From Hoeflea sp. (GTDB taxonomy: Bacteria; Pseudomonadota; Alphaproteobacteria; Rhizobiales; Rhizobiaceae), in the NCBI GenBank assembly GCA_965216535.1, contig OZ244175.1:6570791-6634790 (forward strand): DNA of 64,000 nt. Direction: 5' to 3'. Positions within the stretch are counted from its first letter, which is position 1. Every line of letters begins with the position of its first letter. The notes beneath the pieces were generated by a model, which searched no databases, was not told where the DNA came from, and worked only from the letters and a program-made list of their open reading frames with translations. This document shows positions 30,501-36,939 of this stretch, in pieces. Made by a program: the position numbers and the translations under genes.

Positions 30501-31382
30501 ATGGAGAAATCGCAGTTTAAATCGCCGCTCTATCCTTATCTCCTGCTGATTCCCCAGCTCTCGATCATCGTCATATTTTTCTACTGGCCCGCAGCCGAGG
30601 CCATCCGGTCTTCATTTTATCTTGAGGATCCGTTCGGCTTTTCCTCGACCTTCGTCGGCTTCGACAATTTTCGCGATATGGTGACGCGGTCGGACTATGT
30701 GGCAACGGCCCGGTTTACCGTCATCTTCTCCGTTTTGGTGACCTTCTTCTCCTTGGCCATCGCACTGCTTCTGGCGGTCACCGCAGACCGCGTCTTGCGC
30801 GGCGCGTCGACCTACAAGACGCTGTTGATGTGGGTCTATGCCATTGCACCGCCGGTCGCCGGCCTGATCGGCATTCTGCTGTTCGACAACCTGGTGGGTC
30901 CCATAGCCGAGTTCTTCCGAACTGTCGGATGGGATTTCAAGCTCGGCGTCAATCGGTTCGACACGGCCTTCGCGATGGTCACGATTTCCATCTGGAAGCA
31001 GGTGCCGGTCAACTTCATCTTCTTCCTCTCTGGTCTGCAGGGCATACCGAAATCGGTGCAGGAAGCGGCGGCCATCGATTGCGGCTCGTCGACCCGCCGG
31101 TTCTGGACCATCACGTTCCCGCTGCTCGCACCAACCGGTTTCTTCCTGTTGATCATCAACATAACCTACTCGCTGTTCGACACGTTTGGCGTCATCGACG
31201 TCGTGCTGAAGGGCGAGCCCGGCAACAATCCGGTGACACTGGTCTACAAGGTTTTCCTGGACGGCTTCCGCGGCAATGACCTCGGCGGCTCTTCAGCCCA
31301 GTCTGTCATCCTGATGATCCTGGTTCTCGTCTTAACGATCTTTCAATTCCGAATGATCGAGCGACGAGTGCACTACAGCTGA
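30501..31382 (+). CDS. ugpA: Glycerol-3-phosphate ABC permease
   Basis: EAAAIDCG, RRFWTITFPLL, LGGSSAQSVILM, ERRVHY. Confidence 0.92.
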   Translation: MEKSQFKSPLYPYLLLIPQLSIIVIFFYWPAAEAIRSSFYLEDPFGFSSTFVGFDNFRDMVTRSDYVATARFTVIFSVLVTFFSLAIALLLAVTADRVLRGASTYKTLLMWVYAIAPPVAGLIGILLFDNLVGPIAEFFRTVGWDFKLGVNRFDTAFAMVTISIWKQVPVNFIFFLSGLQGIPKSVQEAAAIDCGSSTRRFWTITFPLLAPTGFFLLIINITYSLFDTFGVIDVVLKGEPGNNPVTLVYKVFLDGFRGNDLGGSSAQSVILMILVLVLTIFQFRMIERRVHYS

Positions 31383-31393
31383 GGGCGTTTGCG

Positions 31394-32311
31394 ATGACTA
31401 CTTCGGACATTCATCTGGACCCGTCGAAAACAGAAACGCTGACGGCCGCCGGGCACCACAAGAAACGTTTCCGCTGGGGCATCGTGATCGATCACGTCGT
31501 GCTGATCGCCGGTTCCCTCTTCATGCTTTTGCCGGTGCTGGCGGCCTTCCTGACCTCGAGCCACGACAACATCACGGTTCACAGCAGCGGCTTGCAAATG
31601 ACCCTCGGCGATCATCTCGGCGAAAACTACTACAATGCGATGCTGGTTCCGGGCGGCTTCACCAAGACGGTCGACGGCATGAGCATGCTGATGAACTCGT
31701 TCATCCTCGGCATCGGCTTTTCCGTCGGCAAGATCATCATATCGATGCTTGCCGCCTATGCCATCGTCTATTTCCAGTTCCGCTTCGCGACACTCGCGTT
31801 CTGGCTGATCTTCACCACCCTGTTGCTGCCGCTTGAGGTCCGCATCCTGCCGTCCTACGAAATCGTCCAGGGACTGGGGCTGACCAACACCTACACTGGC
31901 CTGATCGTGCCGCTGATTGCTTCAGCCACCGGAACATTCTTCTTCCGGCAGTTCTTCAAGTCGGTGCCGAACGAATTGATCGAGGCGGCCCGCATCGATG
32001 GCGCCGGGCCGGTAAAGTTTTTCTTCGACATTCTCGTGCCGCTGTCAAAAACGATGATTGCGGCAATCTTCATCATCATGTTCGTGTTCGGCTGGAACCA
32101 GTATCTGTGGCCGACAATCATGACCACCGAGGAAGGCTTCTTTACCCTGGTCCGCGGCATTTCGCAGATCATGCAGGTCTTCATCGGCTCGCAGATCCCG
32201 GACTACGGTGAAGCGATGGCGCTTGCTGTTGTCGCCATGCTGCCGCCGGTGCTGATCGTGGTCTTCTTCCAAAGATGGTTCGTCAAGGGCCTTGTGGAAT
32301 CGGAAAAATAG
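31394..32311 (+). CDS. ugpE: Glycerol-3-phosphate ABC permease
   Basis: LPLEVRILPSY, EAARIDGAG, WNQYLWP, FVKGLVESEK. Confidence 0.92.
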   Translation: MTTSDIHLDPSKTETLTAAGHHKKRFRWGIVIDHVVLIAGSLFMLLPVLAAFLTSSHDNITVHSSGLQMTLGDHLGENYYNAMLVPGGFTKTVDGMSMLMNSFILGIGFSVGKIIISMLAAYAIVYFQFRFATLAFWLIFTTLLLPLEVRILPSYEIVQGLGLTNTYTGLIVPLIASATGTFFFRQFFKSVPNELIEAARIDGAGPVKFFFDILVPLSKTMIAAIFIIMFVFGWNQYLWPTIMTTEEGFFTLVRGISQIMQVFIGSQIPDYGEAMALAVVAMLPPVLIVVFFQRWFVKGLVESEK

Positions 32312-32320
32312 GAAAAAAGA

Positions 32321-33382
32321 ATGGCCCAGGTTCTCATCGACAAGGTACGCAAGGTCTATCCGAACGGGACTGAGGCGCTGACCCCATCCTCACTCTCCAT
32401 TCGCGACGGTGAATTCATCGTGCTGGTCGGCCCGTCCGGTTGCGGCAAGTCGACATTGCTGCGCATGGTCGCCGGACTCGAGGATATTACCGAAGGGACG
32501 GTTTCCATCGGCGAACGGGTCGTCAACGATCTCGATCCGGCGGAGCGCGACATCGCCATGGTGTTTCAGAACTACGCGCTCTACCCGCATATGTCGGTTT
32601 ACAAGAACATGGCCTACGGACTGAAAAACCGTGGCCGATCGAAAGAAGACATCGACGTGGCGGTGCAGAAGGCGGCGAAGCTGCTGCACATCGAGGAATT
32701 CCTGGAGCGGCGACCGAGCCAGTTGTCAGGTGGCCAGCGTCAGCGTGTTGCCATGGGCCGGGCGATCGTTCGCGATCCATCGCTGTTCCTGTTCGACGAA
32801 CCGCTGTCCAACCTCGACGCCAAGCTTCGCAATCAGATGCGCATTGAAATCCGCAAGCTGCAGCGGGAGCTCGGTGTCACCTCGATCTACGTCACGCACG
32901 ACCAGATCGAAGCGATGACCATGGCCGACCGGATCGCAGTGCTGAACACGGGAACGATCGAGCAGATTGGCACGCCTTCTGAAATCTATCACGCACCTGC
33001 CAGCATCTTCGTCGCCAGTTTCATGGGCGCACCGCCCATGAACATTCTGGACGGCCACTACAACGGCAATGGCGGCCTGGAGATCAAGGATCTGGGCCAT
33101 GTTGCCGTCGACCACCAATTGGCGACGACCGGTGACATCCAGGTCGGTATTCGCCCGGAGAACGTCGAAATCCATCAAAACGAGATGGAAAACACCGTTC
33201 CGATCAAAGTCGACTTTCTGGAAGAACTGGGCGCCGGTCGATTGTTGCATACGACCATCGGCTCGACCCACTTCGTTGCCCATCTCGACAACGAGCACCC
33301 CATTGACGGCGACCGGGTCTTCGCCCACCTGCCGGCGCGAGCTCTTCACCTGTTCGATGCGGCCACCGGACGACGCGTCTGA
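32321..33382 (+). CDS. ugpC: Glycerol-3-phosphate ABC ATPase
   Basis: [30 protein letters not shown]-terminal TOBE region. Confidence 0.92.
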
Positions 33383-33401
33383 ACCGGAGCAGGTTCGACA
33401 T

Positions 33402-33923
33402 TCACTTCAGGTTGATGCGTTGCTGTACCTCGACAGGTGGAAAGGTAACGCAATCAACTGCATCAAAAAGCACTTCGAACGGTTCGAGAGGCTGTTCAAC
33501 CAGAGCCAGCGCCGCATCGCGATTATCGTCCGTGACTGCGGTTCCCAGTGTGCAATGCGGAACCCAGTTCTGCGGCCGATAGTGATCGTGGCAAAACCGA
33601 GGTTCTATCTGCTCGTGAAGTGATCGATGCAACCCTTCGAGTTCCGCCGCGTTCGCCGGTTTGGCCCACAGGATCAGAGGCGATGCGGAAAAGCTGCTGA
33701 GCGCTTCAAACCGCACACGCAAAGCGACCCGACCTGCGAAGACCGCATGTGCGACATCGGCAAGGGTGCTGGCTTCGACATCATCGTATATGGCGAGTGT
33801 GATGTGCGGTGGGTAGTGCATTGCAATCATCGACGGCGATGCTTCCCACTGTCCGACGCAATCCCAAAGGTCGCGCAACGGTGCAGCACTTGCATTGCTT
33901 GCGGTTATGCAGATTGCTTGCAA
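33402..33923 (-). CDS. 2H phosphoesterase (2'-5' RNA ligase superfamily)
   Basis: Two HxT motifs: PPHITL and VPHCTL. Confidence 0.85.
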   Translation of the reverse strand: MQAICITASNASAAPLRDLWDCVGQWEASPSMIAMHYPPHITLAIYDDVEASTLADVAHAVFAGRVALRVRFEALSSFSASPLILWAKPANAAELEGLHRSLHEQIEPRFCHDHYRPQNWVPHCTLGTAVTDDNRDAALALVEQPLEPFEVLFDAVDCVTFPPVEVQQRINLK

Positions 33924-33975
33924 AGTTTCGGTCCCATTGTGCCACGGTTCCTACCGCCCACAGGAAGCAGCTCCG

Positions 33976-34104
33976 CTAACGCATGTTCGGGACCTTGCCT
34001 TGCGATGAAACGGGTCGGTCCTTGAGCAAGGGACCGTCTGATGTCGAAGTGCAGGACGACATGGCTATTGCCGCCGCGACAATCAGCAGAATACGCAGAA
34101 TCAT
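33976..34104 (-). CDS. Micro-lipoprotein 1, 42 aa (not in ORF track)
   Basis: GAGGAGG SD, then MILRILLIVAAAIAMSS-C-TSTSDGPLLKDRPVSSQGKVPNMR-TAG; lipobox-like MSSC. Confidence 0.85.
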   Translation of the reverse strand: MILRILLIVAAAIAMSSCTSTSDGPLLKDRPVSSQGKVPNMR

Positions 34105-34148
34105 GGAAGCCTCCTCAATACACACGGCAGATCTGGGACAGCCGATTG

Positions 34149-34286
34149 TTATGTCAGATAGTCGTATCCATTCTGAACTTTGCCCTGCGTCGAGACGGGC
34201 CGGTCTTTCAACAACGGGCCATCAGACGTTGACGTACAGGAAGATAGGGCGATTGCGGCAACTGCAAACAGCAAAACACGTAACAT
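34149..34286 (-). CDS. Micro-lipoprotein 2, 45 aa (not in ORF track)
   Basis: GGAG SD, then MLRVLLFAVAAIALSS-C-TSTSDGPLLKDRPVSTQGKVQNGYDYLT-TAA; lipobox LSSC; paralog of 33976-34104. Confidence 0.85.
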   Translation of the reverse strand: MLRVLLFAVAAIALSSCTSTSDGPLLKDRPVSTQGKVQNGYDYLT

Positions 34287-34320
34287 CGCGGAATTTCTCC
34301 AAATTGGTGTCACACCCGGT

Positions 34321-35733
34321 TCAAGCCTGTCTCTCGACCTTTTGAGGCGTCTCGGTGATCGGCATTTGCAACTCGATCACCTCCGGCAAGGACAGAACAG
34401 CGATCTCCTGCGGATCCGCTACTCCTTCCAACAGATCGGTCCGGAACTCGACCTGAAGCGGGCCGTCATATCCCTTGCCGATCGCCTCTCGATAGGTATC
34501 TGCGGCCGCAATCAGTCGCGAGCCGAGCACCTTGTTGTGTTTCTCAAGTTTTGCCGAATAGTTGACCGCCGATCCGATTACGGTGATCTCCAGGCGGTTT
34601 TCCTGTCCAACCGCACCAAAGGCAACCTGGCCTGAAGCAACGCCAATACCGATGCCTGCCGCCTGGATCGGTCCCAGTTCCGGATCGTCAGCGCGCCAGT
34701 CATCAAGGTCACGCAAAATGCGCTCTGCCGCCTCAATGGCCTTGGCCGAACCGGCCGCTCGATCGCCGGTGCCGAATGTCGCCATGATGCCGTCGCCCAT
34801 GAATTTGTCGATGACCCCGCCGCAATCCTGAATGATCGGCACCACCCTGCTCTGGTAGCTAGAAAGCGTGCGCATGACCTCGGAGGCCTCCATTTTGGCT
34901 GCCATGCGCGTGAACCCGCGAATATCGGCAAACAGAATCGCCACCTGGCGGTTCTCTCCCTTGCCGGCCTCAAGCTGTTCCGCGCTCTCGCGGATGCCAC
35001 TGGCAATCGAGGTATCGAAAAAGCGCGACAAGTCTTTGGCCGCAACACCTTCGGTAGCCGCGCTGACCAACAGATTGTTCGACGCATTGACCACCAGGGT
35101 CAGCACGGCGGTCACCAGGAGAACCGACAGGATCTTGTCGATCTCGGCGCCGATCAGAATGGAATTCGACGTCAGATATTCGACATAGGAGCGGGTCAGC
35201 ATATTGTCGCCCGGGTCGATCCGGGTCACGTAGAAGATGACCGAGGCCCAACCGACCGCCGCGACCACGCCGGATACGATGACGAATCGCGATTCAAAAC
35301 GCAGCGCCCTCAAGGCGATGAAGATGAACACGTAAAGCAGCGTCGGCGCTTTGAGGATGAACGAGGCGGGCTGCATGTATTGAACATGGAAACTGATCAT
35401 CAGCCCATAAAGCAGTGCAAAGTCGAACAGGATCGATCCGTATACCGCCCAATGGGGTACTCGAAACCGAATCGACCAGATGAGGCCTATAACGCTGATC
35501 AGCATGTAAGCGCCGAGCACGTAAGGAACAGGTGAAAATGCCTCGTCCGGGCTTGTTTTCGGGCTGATCGCGTAGATCGATGAAAACAGGATGACGATGG
35601 TCAACTGGATCAGGCGCGCCATGATTTCATTGGCCCGCTCGCGCTCTGCAAGCGCGGTCTGGACACGTCCTGGCAACTGGTCGCGCCGGGGTCCCGGGCG
35701 AAAATGCCTCGTTACGAAATCAAATAGGGCCAC
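34321..35733 (-). CDS. Membrane-anchored class III adenylate cyclase
   Basis: Several N-terminal TM helices; LFADIRGFT, IDKFMGDGIM, GIGVASG, ITVIGSAVNYSAKLE; GGAG RBS before GTG. Confidence 0.9.
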   Translation of the reverse strand: MALFDFVTRHFRPGPRRDQLPGRVQTALAERERANEIMARLIQLTIVILFSSIYAISPKTSPDEAFSPVPYVLGAYMLISVIGLIWSIRFRVPHWAVYGSILFDFALLYGLMISFHVQYMQPASFILKAPTLLYVFIFIALRALRFESRFVIVSGVVAAVGWASVIFYVTRIDPGDNMLTRSYVEYLTSNSILIGAEIDKILSVLLVTAVLTLVVNASNNLLVSAATEGVAAKDLSRFFDTSIASGIRESAEQLEAGKGENRQVAILFADIRGFTRMAAKMEASEVMRTLSSYQSRVVPIIQDCGGVIDKFMGDGIMATFGTGDRAAGSAKAIEAAERILRDLDDWRADDPELGPIQAAGIGIGVASGQVAFGAVGQENRLEITVIGSAVNYSAKLEKHNKVLGSRLIAAADTYREAIGKGYDGPLQVEFRTDLLEGVADPQEIAVLSLPEVIELQMPITETPQKVERQA

Positions 35734-35984
35734 GGCTTTTCTCCGTTGGTTCCACTAATACAGCGGTGAACCAATCCCGTCCCATATAGGTCGGGCGACC
35801 TCACATTATCAGTTTCCGTGATGGCTTGTGCATCAAATCGCTCGCAACCGCGCGTGATGGCCTGTTGATGCAATGTGAACACACTCTGGGAAGCGATGGT
35901 CAGGCTTTGCTGATTTCGGCTTTCCGCCGCCGCTACAACCGCGTATGCTTGAGTCGTGTTCAATTATTGAAAGGAGGTGGTCAG

Positions 35985-36065
35985 ATGTCGAGTGAGTTTA
36001 CCGGACGGAATACCGGTGTTGAGGGGAAAGTCCCGGCATCAGAGCAGCCTCTGGAGCTGGTGTGA
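35985..36065 (+). CDS. Putative 26-aa small ORF MSSEFTGRNTGVEGKVPASEQPLELV
   Basis: Perfect AAGGAGGT SD (35971-35978) 6 nt before the ATG. Confidence 0.45.
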   Translation: MSSEFTGRNTGVEGKVPASEQPLELV

Positions 36066-36116
36066 CTCTCAAGGGATTAGCGATTTAATCCACACCGGTA
36101 TTTTCCGGACCTCACG

Positions 36117-36142
36117 GGGGGTGCCTTGCGCACCCCCTTTTT
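36117..36142 (+). terminator. Intrinsic terminator
   Basis: GGGGGTGC-CTTGC-GCACCCCC-TTTTT. Confidence 0.8.
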
Positions 36143-36165
36143 CATTTCGGCGTGAAGGTTTGCCG

Positions 36166-36939
36166 TCAGATCGCCAGATATTCGTTGCGCAGGTCTTCGT
36201 CGTCCAACACATCCTGTGCCTTGCCGGTGTAAACCACCTCGCCCATGTCGACGATTACGGCTTTGTCGGCGAGCTTCAGCGCAGCCACGGCATTTTGTTC
36301 AACTATGATCGTTGTAATGCCGATTTCCTTGATCTGGCGCACGATCTTCTCGATTTCCTGAACGATCACCGGCGCGAGGCCCTCGTAAGGCTCATCGAGC
36401 AGAAGCAGCTTGACGTCACGGGCCAGCGCTCTGGCGACGGCGAGCATCTGTTGCTCGCCACCTGACAACGTCGTGCCGATCTGGGTGCGACGCTCCGCAA
36501 GGCGCGGGAAGTGTTCGTATATCCGTTCCAATTCCCAACCGCGCGGCTCCGACACCTGGGCGAGCACCAGATTTTCCTCAACCGTCAGACCGCCGATAAT
36601 GCGCCGGTCTTCCGGCACCAGTTGCACGCCCAACTGAGCTGCCTGGTAGGACTGCTTGTCATGCAGGCTGGTGCCGCCGAGATAGATCTCGCCCTTGTGC
36701 AGCGCCGGGTCGTCGACGCGAGCCAGGGTGCGCAGGGTGGACGTCTTGCCAGCGCCGTTGCGTCCGAGAAGAGCCAGGATCTCGCCCTCCTTGAGGTCGA
36801 AGGAAATGCCCTGGACGATATAGGACTCGCCGTAATAGGCGTGGATATCCCGAACACTGAAAAACGAGTCTTCAGGAGATCCGGCGACGGTCAGCTGGTC
36901 ATCGAGCGGCAGATCGCTCGCATCGGTCTTTTTCAGCAT
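36166..36939 (-). CDS. LivF-like ABC ATPase
   Basis: GRNGAGKTS, LSGGEQQM, DEPYEGLAP. Confidence 0.9.
   Translation of the reverse strand: MLKKTDASDLPLDDQLTVAGSPEDSFFSVRDIHAYYGESYIVQGISFDLKEGEILALLGRNGAGKTSTLRTLARVDDPALHKGEIYLGGTSLHDKQSYQAAQLGVQLVPEDRRIIGGLTVEENLVLAQVSEPRGWELERIYEHFPRLAERRTQIGTTLSGGEQQMLAVARALARDVKLLLLDEPYEGLAPVIVQEIEKIVRQIKEIGITTIIVEQNAVAALKLADKAVIVDMGEVVYTGKAQDVLDDEDLRNEYLAI

What the first reader, a model, noticed from the sequence alone, without database searches (positions are those of the whole stretch)
33402..35733. Candidate undescribed signalling operon: membrane cyclase + twin micro-lipoproteins + 2H phosphoesterase
Seen: four minus-strand genes with gaps of only ~34, ~44 and ~52 bp. 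They encode a multi-TM class III cyclase with no obvious periplasmic sensor domain, two tiny lipoproteins and a two-HxT 2H phosphoesterase. Known: class III cyclases make cyclic nucleotides, and some 2H enzymes hydrolyse cyclic phosphodiesters or 2'-5' linkages. Inference: a self-contained make/break second-messenger unit in which the lipopeptides act as envelope-status ligands or modulators of the cyclase, by analogy with small lipoproteins that tune membrane sensors. The cyclase shows K and T at the adenine-specifying positions and N..K instead of N..R.
Basis: partly seen in the sequence, partly recalled or inferred. Interest (0 to 1): 0.85.

Follow-up and report, generated by a model that had tools for sequence, protein, structure and literature searches.

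The report
Adenylate cyclase plus orphan micro-lipoproteins
A widely conserved membrane adenylate cyclase gene in a Hoeflea genome is followed by two tiny clade-specific lipoprotein genes and a 2H phosphoesterase gene; relatives show these were added stepwise at an insertion-prone spot, so the four-gene 'make-and-break' signalling unit is not supported, though a cyclase-lipopeptide link stays open.

Summary
There are four minus-strand genes with gaps of 34, 44 and 52 nt: a 6-TM class IIIb cyclase (K310/T384, N391..K395), two real micro-lipoprotein genes (dN/dS 0.02-0.18), and a 2H phosphoesterase with two HxT motifs.

- **Cyclase:** it is an old stand-alone gene. It is present in 16/16 other Hoeflea species and in other genera, there without any of the three partners. 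N..K is invariant across the whole orthologue group.
- **Lipoproteins:** they form an orphan family confined to one Hoeflea subclade (5 of 17 species; 4 true clusters among 1.84 billion representatives). They always lie just behind this cyclase, but through a single origin.
- **2H gene:** it occurs in only one sub-branch. A transposase (G002) or other genes (L071) fill its slot in the sister branch, and a relative with the same liv-cyclase-ugpC synteny has an empty 24-bp junction. It evolves 3-5 times faster than its neighbours. Its remote homologues are not cyclase-linked.

Most likely, newer genes accreted behind a cyclase and are read through from its promoter. A cyclase-lipopeptide partnership remains possible (about 0.2) and untested.

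The parts
34321..35733 (-). 6-TM class IIIb adenylate cyclase, 470 aa. TM helices lie at about 40-56, 68-88, 96-115, 128-142, 150-169 and 201-223. The catalytic domain is about 260-448, with D270, K310, D314, T384, N391 and K395.
   Evidence: Orthologues occur in 16/16 other Hoeflea species and in other genera.
34149..34286 (-). lp1: 45-aa prolipoprotein MLRVLLFAVAAIALSS|CTSTSDGPLLKDRPVSTQGKVQNGYDYLT. The mature lipopeptide is 29 aa with a ...N[GD][YF]DYL tail type.
   Evidence: dN/dS is 0.02-0.14.
33976..34104 (-). lp2: 42-aa prolipoprotein MILRILLIVAAAIAMSS|CTSTSDGPLLKDRPVSSQGKVPNMR. The mature lipopeptide is 25 aa with a ...PN[MQ]R tail type.
   Evidence: dN/dS is 0.05-0.09.
34110..34116 (-). 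GAGGAGG Shine-Dalgarno site of lp2, invariant in 5 genomes.
33402..33923 (-). Cytoplasmic YjcG-like 2H phosphoesterase, 173 aa, with H40xT42 and H123xT125. It is a later addition found in only one sub-branch.
35805..35991 (-). Two sigma-70-like consensus matches upstream of the cyclase (35991-35963 and 35832-35805). They are candidate promoters only.
   Evidence: These are consensus matches, not evidence of function.
32321..33382 (+). ugpC, convergent on the 2H gene with the stops 19 bp apart. It marks the far side of the insertion-prone junction.

Best explanation
The core of the locus is an old, stand-alone 6-TM class IIIb adenylate cyclase. It most likely makes cAMP in response to a cue read by its almost invariant membrane module; the activity and the cue are inferred, not shown.

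In the ancestor of one Hoeflea subclade, a small orphan lipoprotein gene appeared in the junction between the cyclase and the convergent ugpC. It duplicated into the lp1 and lp2 types. This is shown by one well-supported clade in which both types are present in both sub-branches.

Later, a YjcG-like 2H phosphoesterase gene was added behind lp2, in one sub-branch only. In other lineages the same slot holds a transposase, an acetolactate-decarboxylase-like gene, or nothing.

In this genome the three added genes are probably read through from the cyclase promoter, and so are co-expressed with it. This is inferred from the 34/44/52-nt gaps, the separate Shine-Dalgarno sites and the absence of terminators.

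The lipoproteins would be exported, lipidated at Cys and anchored in an envelope membrane, each carrying a 25-29-aa tail predicted from its composition to be unstructured (all inferred). The 2H enzyme is cytoplasmic and most likely acts on 2',3'-cyclic phosphate or 2'-5' substrates, not on 3',5'-cAMP (inferred from the solved 2H enzymes it resembles).

The four genes are therefore an accreted transcription unit, not a conserved make/break module.
For: - Cyclase orthologues occur in 16/16 other Hoeflea species (74-97% identity) and in other genera (39-65%).
- In 7 Hoeflea loci without lipoproteins, a convergent gene follows the cyclase within about 100 bp. In other genera the cyclase lies beside gyrB with no room for small ORFs.
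- L070 and L072 lack all three added genes. L070 keeps liv-cyclase-ugpC synteny, with only 24 bp between the cyclase and ugpC stops.
- The lipoproteins are in 5 of 17 genus genomes, always directly after the cyclase and nowhere else in those genomes.
- No lipoprotein relatives were found in 300 family genomes or in the GTDB species scan. There are only 5 clusters among 5.8 bn proteins, 4 true hits among 1.84 bn representatives and one JGI metagenome contig.
- In the tree, the lipoprotein-bearing cyclases form one clade (support 96/97). The 2H gene is confined to one subclade (95/89), and the sister pair G002+L071 (100/98) lacks it.
- G002 has cyclase-lp-lp-lp followed by a DDE transposase. L071 has cyclase-lp-lp, then a hairpin, then unrelated genes.
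- 2H dN/dS is 0.14-0.25, against 0.03-0.08 for the cyclase and 0.02-0.14 for the lipoproteins.
- A Rhizobium 2H homologue at 42% identity has no cyclase nearby.
- The periplasmic loops and TM helices of the cyclase are essentially identical in species with and without lipoproteins.
Against: - The cyclase-lp-lp adjacency has survived divergence at which synonymous sites approach saturation, while the slot just downstream turned over at least three times. Both lipoproteins are under strong purifying selection. This is what a functional cyclase-lipopeptide partnership would also produce.
- All lipoprotein-bearing genomes are MAGs or metagenome contigs.
Confidence: 0.6

Rival explanations
1. Three-gene sensor module. 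The lipopeptides lp1 and lp2 are dedicated periplasm-side ligands or modulators of the cyclase's 6-TM anchor. For example, they could report lipoprotein trafficking or envelope status. The 2H gene is a passenger.
For: - The lipopeptide genes occur only directly behind this cyclase orthologue in all 5 species and 5 metagenome contigs.
- The adjacency is kept while the next slot turns over.
- Purifying selection is strong on both paralogue types since their duplication.
- The cyclase has no periplasmic domain but an extremely conserved membrane module.
- The idea that 6-TM anchors are receptors has experimental backing in chimeras (PMC4821796).
Against: - There is a single evolutionary origin, so the linkage may be inheritance alone.
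- Orthologous cyclases at 75-81% identity exist without lipopeptides.
- The outward-facing loops show no clade-specific change on gaining the lipopeptides.
- The +2 residue is Thr and the sorting rules of alphaproteobacteria are unknown, so the lipopeptides may leave the inner membrane.
- No physical or expression data exist.
Confidence: 0.2
2. One reading: a four-gene make/break unit in which the 2H enzyme degrades the cyclase's cyclic nucleotide product.
For: Same strand, tight spacing and no terminators. The 2H fold includes enzymes that cut cyclic oligonucleotides, such as Acb1 and the poxvirus cGAMP PDE (PMC9117128).
Against: - The 2H gene is absent from the G002/L071 branch and from all other cyclase orthologue loci.
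- Its constraint is relaxed relative to its neighbours.
- Its remote homologues are not cyclase-linked.
- Its best structural matches are YjcG, LigT and plant CPDase, which are 2',3'-cyclic or Appr>p enzymes. It scores below the ThpR equivalog cut-off.
- From general knowledge, no 2H enzyme is known to hydrolyse 3',5'-cAMP.
Confidence: 0.04
3. The 2H enzyme insulates cAMP signalling by removing 2',3'-cNMPs of RNA-decay origin. This is the role proposed for SpdA at the S. meliloti cyaD1 locus, which would make its position behind a cyclase meaningful without it being the 'break'.
For: SpdA is encoded at a cyclase locus. It proved specific for 2',3'-cNMP, and 2',3'-cAMP interferes with the Crp-like regulator Clr (PMC4222275). 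The 2H fold and motifs fit a 2',3'-cyclic phosphodiesterase.
Against: The linkage is confined to one young sub-branch. SpdA belongs to a different enzyme class (class III PDE). No Crp/Clr gene was seen in the operon. The idea is untested.
Confidence: 0.1
4. The lipopeptides have an envelope function unrelated to the cyclase. Examples are a surface or vesicle-associated small lipoprotein like Atu8019, or an entericidin-like antagonistic pair. On this view they merely use the cyclase's transcript.
For: Tandem paralogous micro-lipoproteins of similar size are known (EcnA/EcnB). A 53-aa Agrobacterium lipoprotein is surface-exposed and mediates vesicle docking (PMC7296081). The junction is an insertion hot spot.
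Against: None of the 15 members matches the entericidin family even at E<=10. The tails are Pro/Gly/Ser-rich and not amphipathic. No data on localisation exist.
Confidence: 0.15

Closest known systems
6-TM class III adenylate cyclases (M. tuberculosis Rv1625c/Cya, PDB 7YZK) with class IIIb catalytic domains (OaPAC, CyaC, Cya2, P. aeruginosa CyaB)
   Same: Hexahelical anchor, then a long helix, then one catalytic domain. Foldseek aligns 436 columns to 7yzk_A, and the catalytic domain matches at TMt 0.72-0.80 to Cya2, CyaC and CyaB. The metal Asp pair, the Lys/Thr substrate pair and the Asn are present.
   Different: Lys395 replaces the transition-state Arg and is invariant in 26 orthologues. 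The membrane module has no Pfam family and is more conserved than the catalytic domain.
S. meliloti cyaD1-clr-spdA locus (PMC4222275)
   Same: A cyclic-phosphodiesterase gene sits at an adenylate cyclase locus in a rhizobial relative. It was expected to break 3',5'-cAMP but proved specific for 2',3'-cNMP.
   Different: SpdA is a class III metallophosphoesterase, not a 2H enzyme. Its cyclases carry CHASE2 domains. No lipoproteins are involved. Here the linkage is confined to one sub-branch.
YfiBNR of Pseudomonas aeruginosa (PMC4655355, PMC2837407)
   Same: A lipoprotein encoded in one operon with an inner-membrane nucleotide cyclase tunes that cyclase from the periplasmic side.
   Different: YfiB is a folded OmpA/Pal-like protein that acts through the periplasmic repressor YfiR on a GGDEF cyclase with a periplasmic PAS domain. 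Here the lipopeptides are 25-29 aa, no YfiR analogue exists, and the cyclase is class III without a periplasmic domain.
Entericidin EcnA/EcnB and Agrobacterium Atu8019 (PMC7296081)
   Same: Very small lipoproteins (precursors of 41-53 aa). EcnA and EcnB are tandem paralogues.
   Different: No sequence relationship: no entericidin hit for any of 15 members at E<=10. The tails are not amphipathic helices. The family is restricted to one Hoeflea subclade.
YjcG / LigT (ThpR) / plant CPDase 2H phosphoesterases (2D4G, 5LDI, 1JH6; PMC5283653)
   Same: Two HxT motifs and the 2H fold, with TM 0.75 to YjcG and 0.74 to CPDase. PF13563 scores above its cut-off.
   Different: Identity to any solved member is only 12-20%. 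The protein scores below the ThpR equivalog cut-off (34.3 against 65.7 bits). It has its own conserved CHDHYRP motif. Its substrate is unknown.
Phage Acb1 and poxvirus cGAMP PDE (2H enzymes that cleave cyclic oligonucleotides; PMC9117128)
   Same: The same fold, shown to degrade a cyclic-nucleotide second messenger.
   Different: These are weak structural matches (ranks 33-45, TMq 0.45-0.54). Their substrates are cyclic di- and trinucleotides, not cAMP. They are viral counter-defence proteins.

Membership tests
Class III nucleotidyl cyclase, subclass IIIb adenylate cyclase | Catalytic domain matches PF00211 and solved class III domains | tested here: met
   39 bits against a cut-off of 21.9. 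phmmer to OaPAC, CyaB1, Cya2 and CyaC gives E 1e-20 to 1e-14. Foldseek TMt is 0.72-0.80.
Class III nucleotidyl cyclase, subclass IIIb adenylate cyclase | Two metal-binding Asp residues | tested here: met
   D270 (FADIRGF) and D314 (GDG) are invariant in 26 orthologues.
Class III nucleotidyl cyclase, subclass IIIb adenylate cyclase | Adenine-specifying Lys plus Thr (Thr instead of Asp marks IIIb) | tested here: met
   K310 and T384 align to the Lys and Thr of OaPAC and are invariant.
Class III nucleotidyl cyclase, subclass IIIb adenylate cyclase | Transition-state Asn...Arg pair | tested here: not met
   N391 is present, but K395 stands where OaPAC and CyaB1 have Arg (VNYSAKLE against VNVAARLE). 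K395 is invariant in all 26 orthologues.
Class III nucleotidyl cyclase, subclass IIIb adenylate cyclase | cAMP synthesis by a homodimer | not testable with these tools
   Needs an enzyme assay.
2H phosphoesterase superfamily | Two H-x-T/S motifs | tested here: met
   H40-I-T42 and H123-C-T125 are invariant in 10 homologues.
2H phosphoesterase superfamily | 2H fold and family HMM | tested here: met
   PF13563 at 61.8 bits against a cut-off of 27. AF2 pLDDT 93.2. Foldseek gives YjcG E 1e-8 and TM 0.75.
RNA 2',3'-cyclic phosphodiesterase ThpR/LigT (TIGR02258 equivalog) | Score above the equivalog cut-off | tested here: not met
   34.3 bits against a cut-off of 65.7.
Bacterial lipoprotein (signal peptidase II substrate) | Positive n-region, hydrophobic core, and lipobox [LVI][ASTVI][GAS]C | tested here: met
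   lp1 has R3 and A-L-S-S-C17. lp2 has R4 and A-M-S-S-C18, where Met at -3 is off-consensus. S-C-T is invariant in 15 members. The Pfam LPAM_1 score is below its cut-off (14.3 against 20).
Bacterial lipoprotein (signal peptidase II substrate) | Actual lipidation and membrane location | not testable with these tools
   Needs globomycin or palmitate labelling and fractionation.
Entericidin A/B family | Match to the family profile | tested here: not met
   No entericidin hit for any of 15 members at E<=10. There was also none at E<=0.1.
Pycsar anti-phage system | PycC cyclase with an adjacent cNMP-binding effector; accessory, patchy distribution | tested here: not met
   PycC profiles hit only the shared catalytic domain (92 bits). 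No effector gene is adjacent. The substrate residues are purine-type. The gene is core in the genus.
Conserved functional gene neighbourhood (four-gene module) | Co-occurrence of all four genes across lineages | tested here: not met
   The cyclase stands alone in 12 of 17 Hoeflea species and in other genera. The 2H gene is absent from the G002/L071 branch.
Operon (single transcription unit) | Same strand, short gaps, no internal terminators | tested here: met
   Gaps of 34, 44 and 52 nt. No terminator-like sites. Intergenic fold z-scores run from -0.09 to 0.68.
Operon (single transcription unit) | One RNA spanning the junctions | not testable with these tools

The most novel reading that the evidence does not exclude
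The two lipopeptides are natural, genetically encoded ligands of the hexahelical membrane anchor of a class III adenylate cyclase. On this reading a young regulatory layer was bolted onto an old sensor. It would make this clade a natural with/without experiment on whether cyclase membrane anchors are receptors.
Probability: 0.15. Interest if true: 0.7.

Novelty: new variant of a known kind. Interest (0 to 1): 0.3.

Why it matters
As a four-gene make/break module it does not hold, so its main value is as a corrected annotation. It is a core 6-TM adenylate cyclase with an invariant Lys at the transition-state Arg position, plus a clade-restricted orphan lipoprotein family and a YjcG-like 2H enzyme.

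Two leads remain:
- **A natural comparison.** Close relatives carry the same cyclase with and without the lipopeptides. This would make the long-standing question of whether 6-TM cyclase anchors receive ligands cheaply testable in a cya-minus laboratory E. coli.
- **A case of gene accretion.** Young small genes have been fixed under strong purifying selection in the 3' shadow of an older gene, at a junction that also collects a transposase and unrelated genes, next to a ugpC gene that carries a group II intron in one relative.

Tried and rejected
- **Entericidin or other known small-lipoprotein families.** There are no profile hits. Only lipobox-level matches appear: LPAM_1 and PG1828 below their cut-offs, and DUF4995 at E 0.05.
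- **Pycsar or another defence system.** The PycC hits reflect the shared catalytic fold only. There is no effector, and the gene is core in the genus.
- **Remote lipopeptide relatives.** Apart from close relatives within the subclade, each search found only signal-peptide or low-complexity matches. The searches were 300 family genomes, the GTDB species pattern scan, the 5.8-bn word search, the 1.84-bn profile search and the JGI metagenome scan. The one extra own-genome hit, L003, is a YkuD-type lipoprotein signal peptide.
- **Known RNA elements in 33000-36600.** None at E<=0.1.
- **Internal terminators or structured intergenic RNAs.** None above chance.
- **Co-adaptation of cyclase loops with gain of the lipopeptides.** No clade-specific substitutions.
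- **Could not be done.** No multimer prediction is offered.
Full report
**1. What is there**

Between the convergent ugpAEC genes (30501-33382, + strand) and the livHMGF genes (ending at 36166, - strand), the minus strand carries four ORFs:
- a 470-aa cyclase (34321-35733)
- a 45-aa ORF, lp1 (34149-34286)
- a 42-aa ORF, lp2 (33976-34104)
- a 173-aa ORF, 2H (33402-33923)

Pfam gives PF00211 for the cyclase (39 bits; cut-off 21.9) and PF13563 for the last gene (61.8 bits; cut-off 27). It gives only lipobox-level hints for the two small ORFs. NCBIfam adds nothing specific, and the 2H protein is below the ThpR equivalog cut-off (34.3 against 65.7 bits). No terminator-like site lies between the genes. 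The three intergenic RNAs fold no better than shuffles, with z from -0.09 to 0.68. Rfam finds nothing in 33000-36600.

The window lies in a 7.9-Mb single-contig genome. Records of sister genomes name it as Hoeflea, all of them MAGs.

**2. The cyclase**

Hydropathy gives six TM segments, a positively charged N-terminus and short positive cytoplasmic loops. The largest outward loop is about 31 aa (170-200), so there is no periplasmic sensor domain. An AF2 model built on 26 orthologues (pLDDT 75.7) shows the same six helices. TM6 continues into a long helix, followed by the catalytic domain. Foldseek matches class IIIb domains (Cya2, OaPAC, CyaC, CyaB) at TMt 0.72-0.80 and aligns 436 columns to full-length Rv1625c/Cya.

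HMMER alignments to OaPAC and a CyaB1 fusion identify these residues:
- D270 and D314, the metal-binding pair
- K310 and T384, the adenine-type class IIIb substrate pair
- N391
- K395, where the family has the transition-state Arg (VNYSAKLE against VNVAARLE)

All six residues are invariant in 26 orthologues spanning 55-81% identity. The Lys is therefore a fixed trait of this orthologue group, not decay.

The membrane module is more conserved than the catalytic domain across the genus. Its outward loops are virtually identical in all species.

**3. The small ORFs are real lipoprotein genes of an orphan family**

Both have an Arg in the n-region, a hydrophobic core and an L/M-S-S-C lipobox. lp2 has an invariant GAGGAGG Shine-Dalgarno site. 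Orthologue comparisons give dN/dS of 0.02-0.18. Between the two paralogues, synonymous sites are saturated while the 23-codon mature core has about 3 non-synonymous and 17 synonymous differences. This agrees with the separate first-stage note e1-5279346.

Two tail types (...N[GD][YF]DYL and ...PN[MQ]R) are each conserved across the clade, so the duplication predates its radiation.

The family is extremely narrow:

| Search | Result |
|---|---|
| 5.8 bn proteins, word search | 5 clusters |
| 1.84 bn representatives, profile search | 4 true hits |
| 300 genomes of the family | only signal-peptide matches |
| All GTDB species representatives | four Hoeflea-clade loci |
| 241 M JGI metagenome records | one contig |

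None of the 15 members matches entericidin or any other Pfam family, even at E<=10.

**4. The 2H protein**

H40-I-T42 and H123-C-T125 are invariant in ten homologues, together with a CHDHYRP motif. The AF2 model (pLDDT 93.2) best matches these structures:
- B. subtilis YjcG (TM 0.75)
- a Pyrococcus LigT-like protein
- Arabidopsis CPDase (TM 0.74)
- the AKAP18 central domain
- E. coli LigT

The cyclic-oligonucleotide-cleaving 2H enzymes are far weaker matches. There is no signal peptide, so the protein is cytoplasmic. The start position is conserved with TTG, ATG or GTG in five genomes.

**5. Comparative test of the module**

*The cyclase elsewhere.* Its orthologue is in 16 of 16 other Hoeflea species (74-97% identity) and in other genera (39-65%). 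The lipoproteins are in only 5 of 17 genus genomes: two copies each in G000, G003, G013 and G015, and three in G002. They always lie directly after the cyclase and nowhere else in those genomes. The 2H gene follows in four of the five, but not in G002.

*Loci without lipoproteins.* In seven such Hoeflea loci the cyclase lies in another context. A convergent chemoreceptor or MFS gene follows it within about 100 bp. In three other genera it lies beside gyrB with no room for small ORFs.

*Empty and variable junctions.*
- Contig L070 (cyclase 79% identical) has the same livGF-cyclase-ugpCEA synteny. Only 24 bp separate the cyclase and ugpC stops, and the roughly 1-kb lp-lp-2H stretch is simply absent.
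- L072 likewise has no lipoprotein or 2H gene after its cyclase; a convergent gene follows 24 bp later.
- In G002 the slot after the third lipoprotein gene holds a DDE transposase.
- In L071, the sister of G002, cyclase-lp-lp is followed by a GC-rich hairpin, an acetolactate-decarboxylase-like gene and a secreted protein, but no 2H gene.
- A near-identical relative, L065, has a group II intron in ugpC.

*Tree.* An ML tree of 32 cyclases puts all lipoprotein-bearing loci in one clade (support 96/97). Its sub-branches are G002+L071 (100/98, no 2H) and the 2H-bearing group (95/89). The empty-site contigs fall outside this clade.

*The 2H gene.* A Rhizobium 2H homologue (42% identity) lies among unrelated genes. 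Within the clade the 2H gene has dN/dS of 0.14-0.25, against 0.03-0.08 for the cyclase, 0.02-0.14 for the lipoproteins and below 0.04 for livF and ugpC.

**6. Reading**

The data show an old stand-alone cyclase. Behind it, one lineage fixed a new lipoprotein gene that then duplicated. One sub-lineage later added a 2H gene. All of this happened at a convergent junction that repeatedly takes up DNA.

The make/break idea fails for three reasons:
- The 2H gene is not co-conserved with the cyclase.
- It is under weaker constraint than its neighbours.
- It belongs to a superfamily whose characterised members act on 2',3'-cyclic phosphates, Appr>p, 2'-5' links or cyclic oligonucleotides (PMC5283653, PMC9117128).

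A milder role is conceivable but untested: clearing 2',3'-cNMPs that disturb cAMP signalling, as proposed for SpdA at the S. meliloti cyaD1 locus (PMC4222275).

The lipopeptide-cyclase link is the part that survives. The genes are never apart, and the adjacency outlived several turnovers of the next slot. Three points weigh against it:
- There is only a single origin.
- Orthologous cyclases function in relatives without lipopeptides.
- The outward cyclase loops did not change when the lipopeptides arrived.

I put the link at about 0.2.

**7. Comparison with known systems and novelty**

By function, the nearest analogue for a lipoprotein tuning a membrane cyclase is YfiBNR (PMC4655355), but every component differs. 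The closest small lipoproteins by size and tandem layout are EcnA/EcnB and Atu8019 (PMC7296081), with no sequence relation. The cyclase is an ordinary member of the 6-TM class IIIb kind, except for the invariant Lys395. The receptor hypothesis for such anchors (PMC4821796) is what would make the lipopeptides interesting.

Overall this is a new variant of known kinds: an accreted operon containing an orphan lipoprotein family. It is not a new signalling system.

**8. Limits**

- All lipoprotein-bearing sequences are MAGs or metagenome contigs.
- G003 carries an in-frame TAG in the cyclase and a frameshift in ugpC. These may be assembly errors.
Unlinked 2H copies, paralogue contexts in the own genome and expression could therefore not be examined.

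Noticed in passing
window 35986-36138 (+); L070 about 2700-2900 (opposite strand): A 26-codon sORF (MSSEFTGRNTGVEGKVPASEQPLELV) sits behind an AAGGAGGT Shine-Dalgarno site and is followed by a strong terminator (36116-36138). The same unit exists in L070 (MSSEFTGDNTRWDGFSLASEQSPASA plus a matching hairpin), so the N-terminus MSSEFTG.NT is conserved at protein level. This bears on first-stage note e1-5279347. L070 and L072 also have a DUF3775 gene between livF and this unit, and that gene is missing in the window.
   Followed up: partly
L007/L057 (G003): The cyclase has an in-frame TAG near codon 118, and ugpC is split by a frameshift, while both lipoprotein genes are intact. These are either MAG sequencing errors or incipient pseudogenes.
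   Followed up: no
L065 6244-7710: A near-identical relative of the window (cyclase 99% identical) carries a group II intron reverse transcriptase (RVT_1+GIIM) inserted in ugpC, next to the junction studied here.
   Followed up: no
L059 4507-5889 (G002): A 460-aa DDE transposase (PF13701, 508 bits) occupies the slot that holds the 2H gene in the window. G002 also has a third, more divergent lipoprotein copy (L059 3702-3836), and its type recurs in P0139.
   Followed up: partly
window 34284-34292 (-): The lp1 start has shifted. The window uses an ATG one codon downstream of the GTG used by G013, G015 and G003 (GTG->GCG and ATA->ATG in the window).
   Followed up: no
whole genome: The genome gives 34 matches to the cyclase query, a large class III cyclase paralogue family. 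Several align from the membrane module onward at 28-31% identity.
   Followed up: no
L068 936-2723: In another genus the orthologous cyclase is divergently paired with a second cyclase gene that carries TPR repeats.
   Followed up: no
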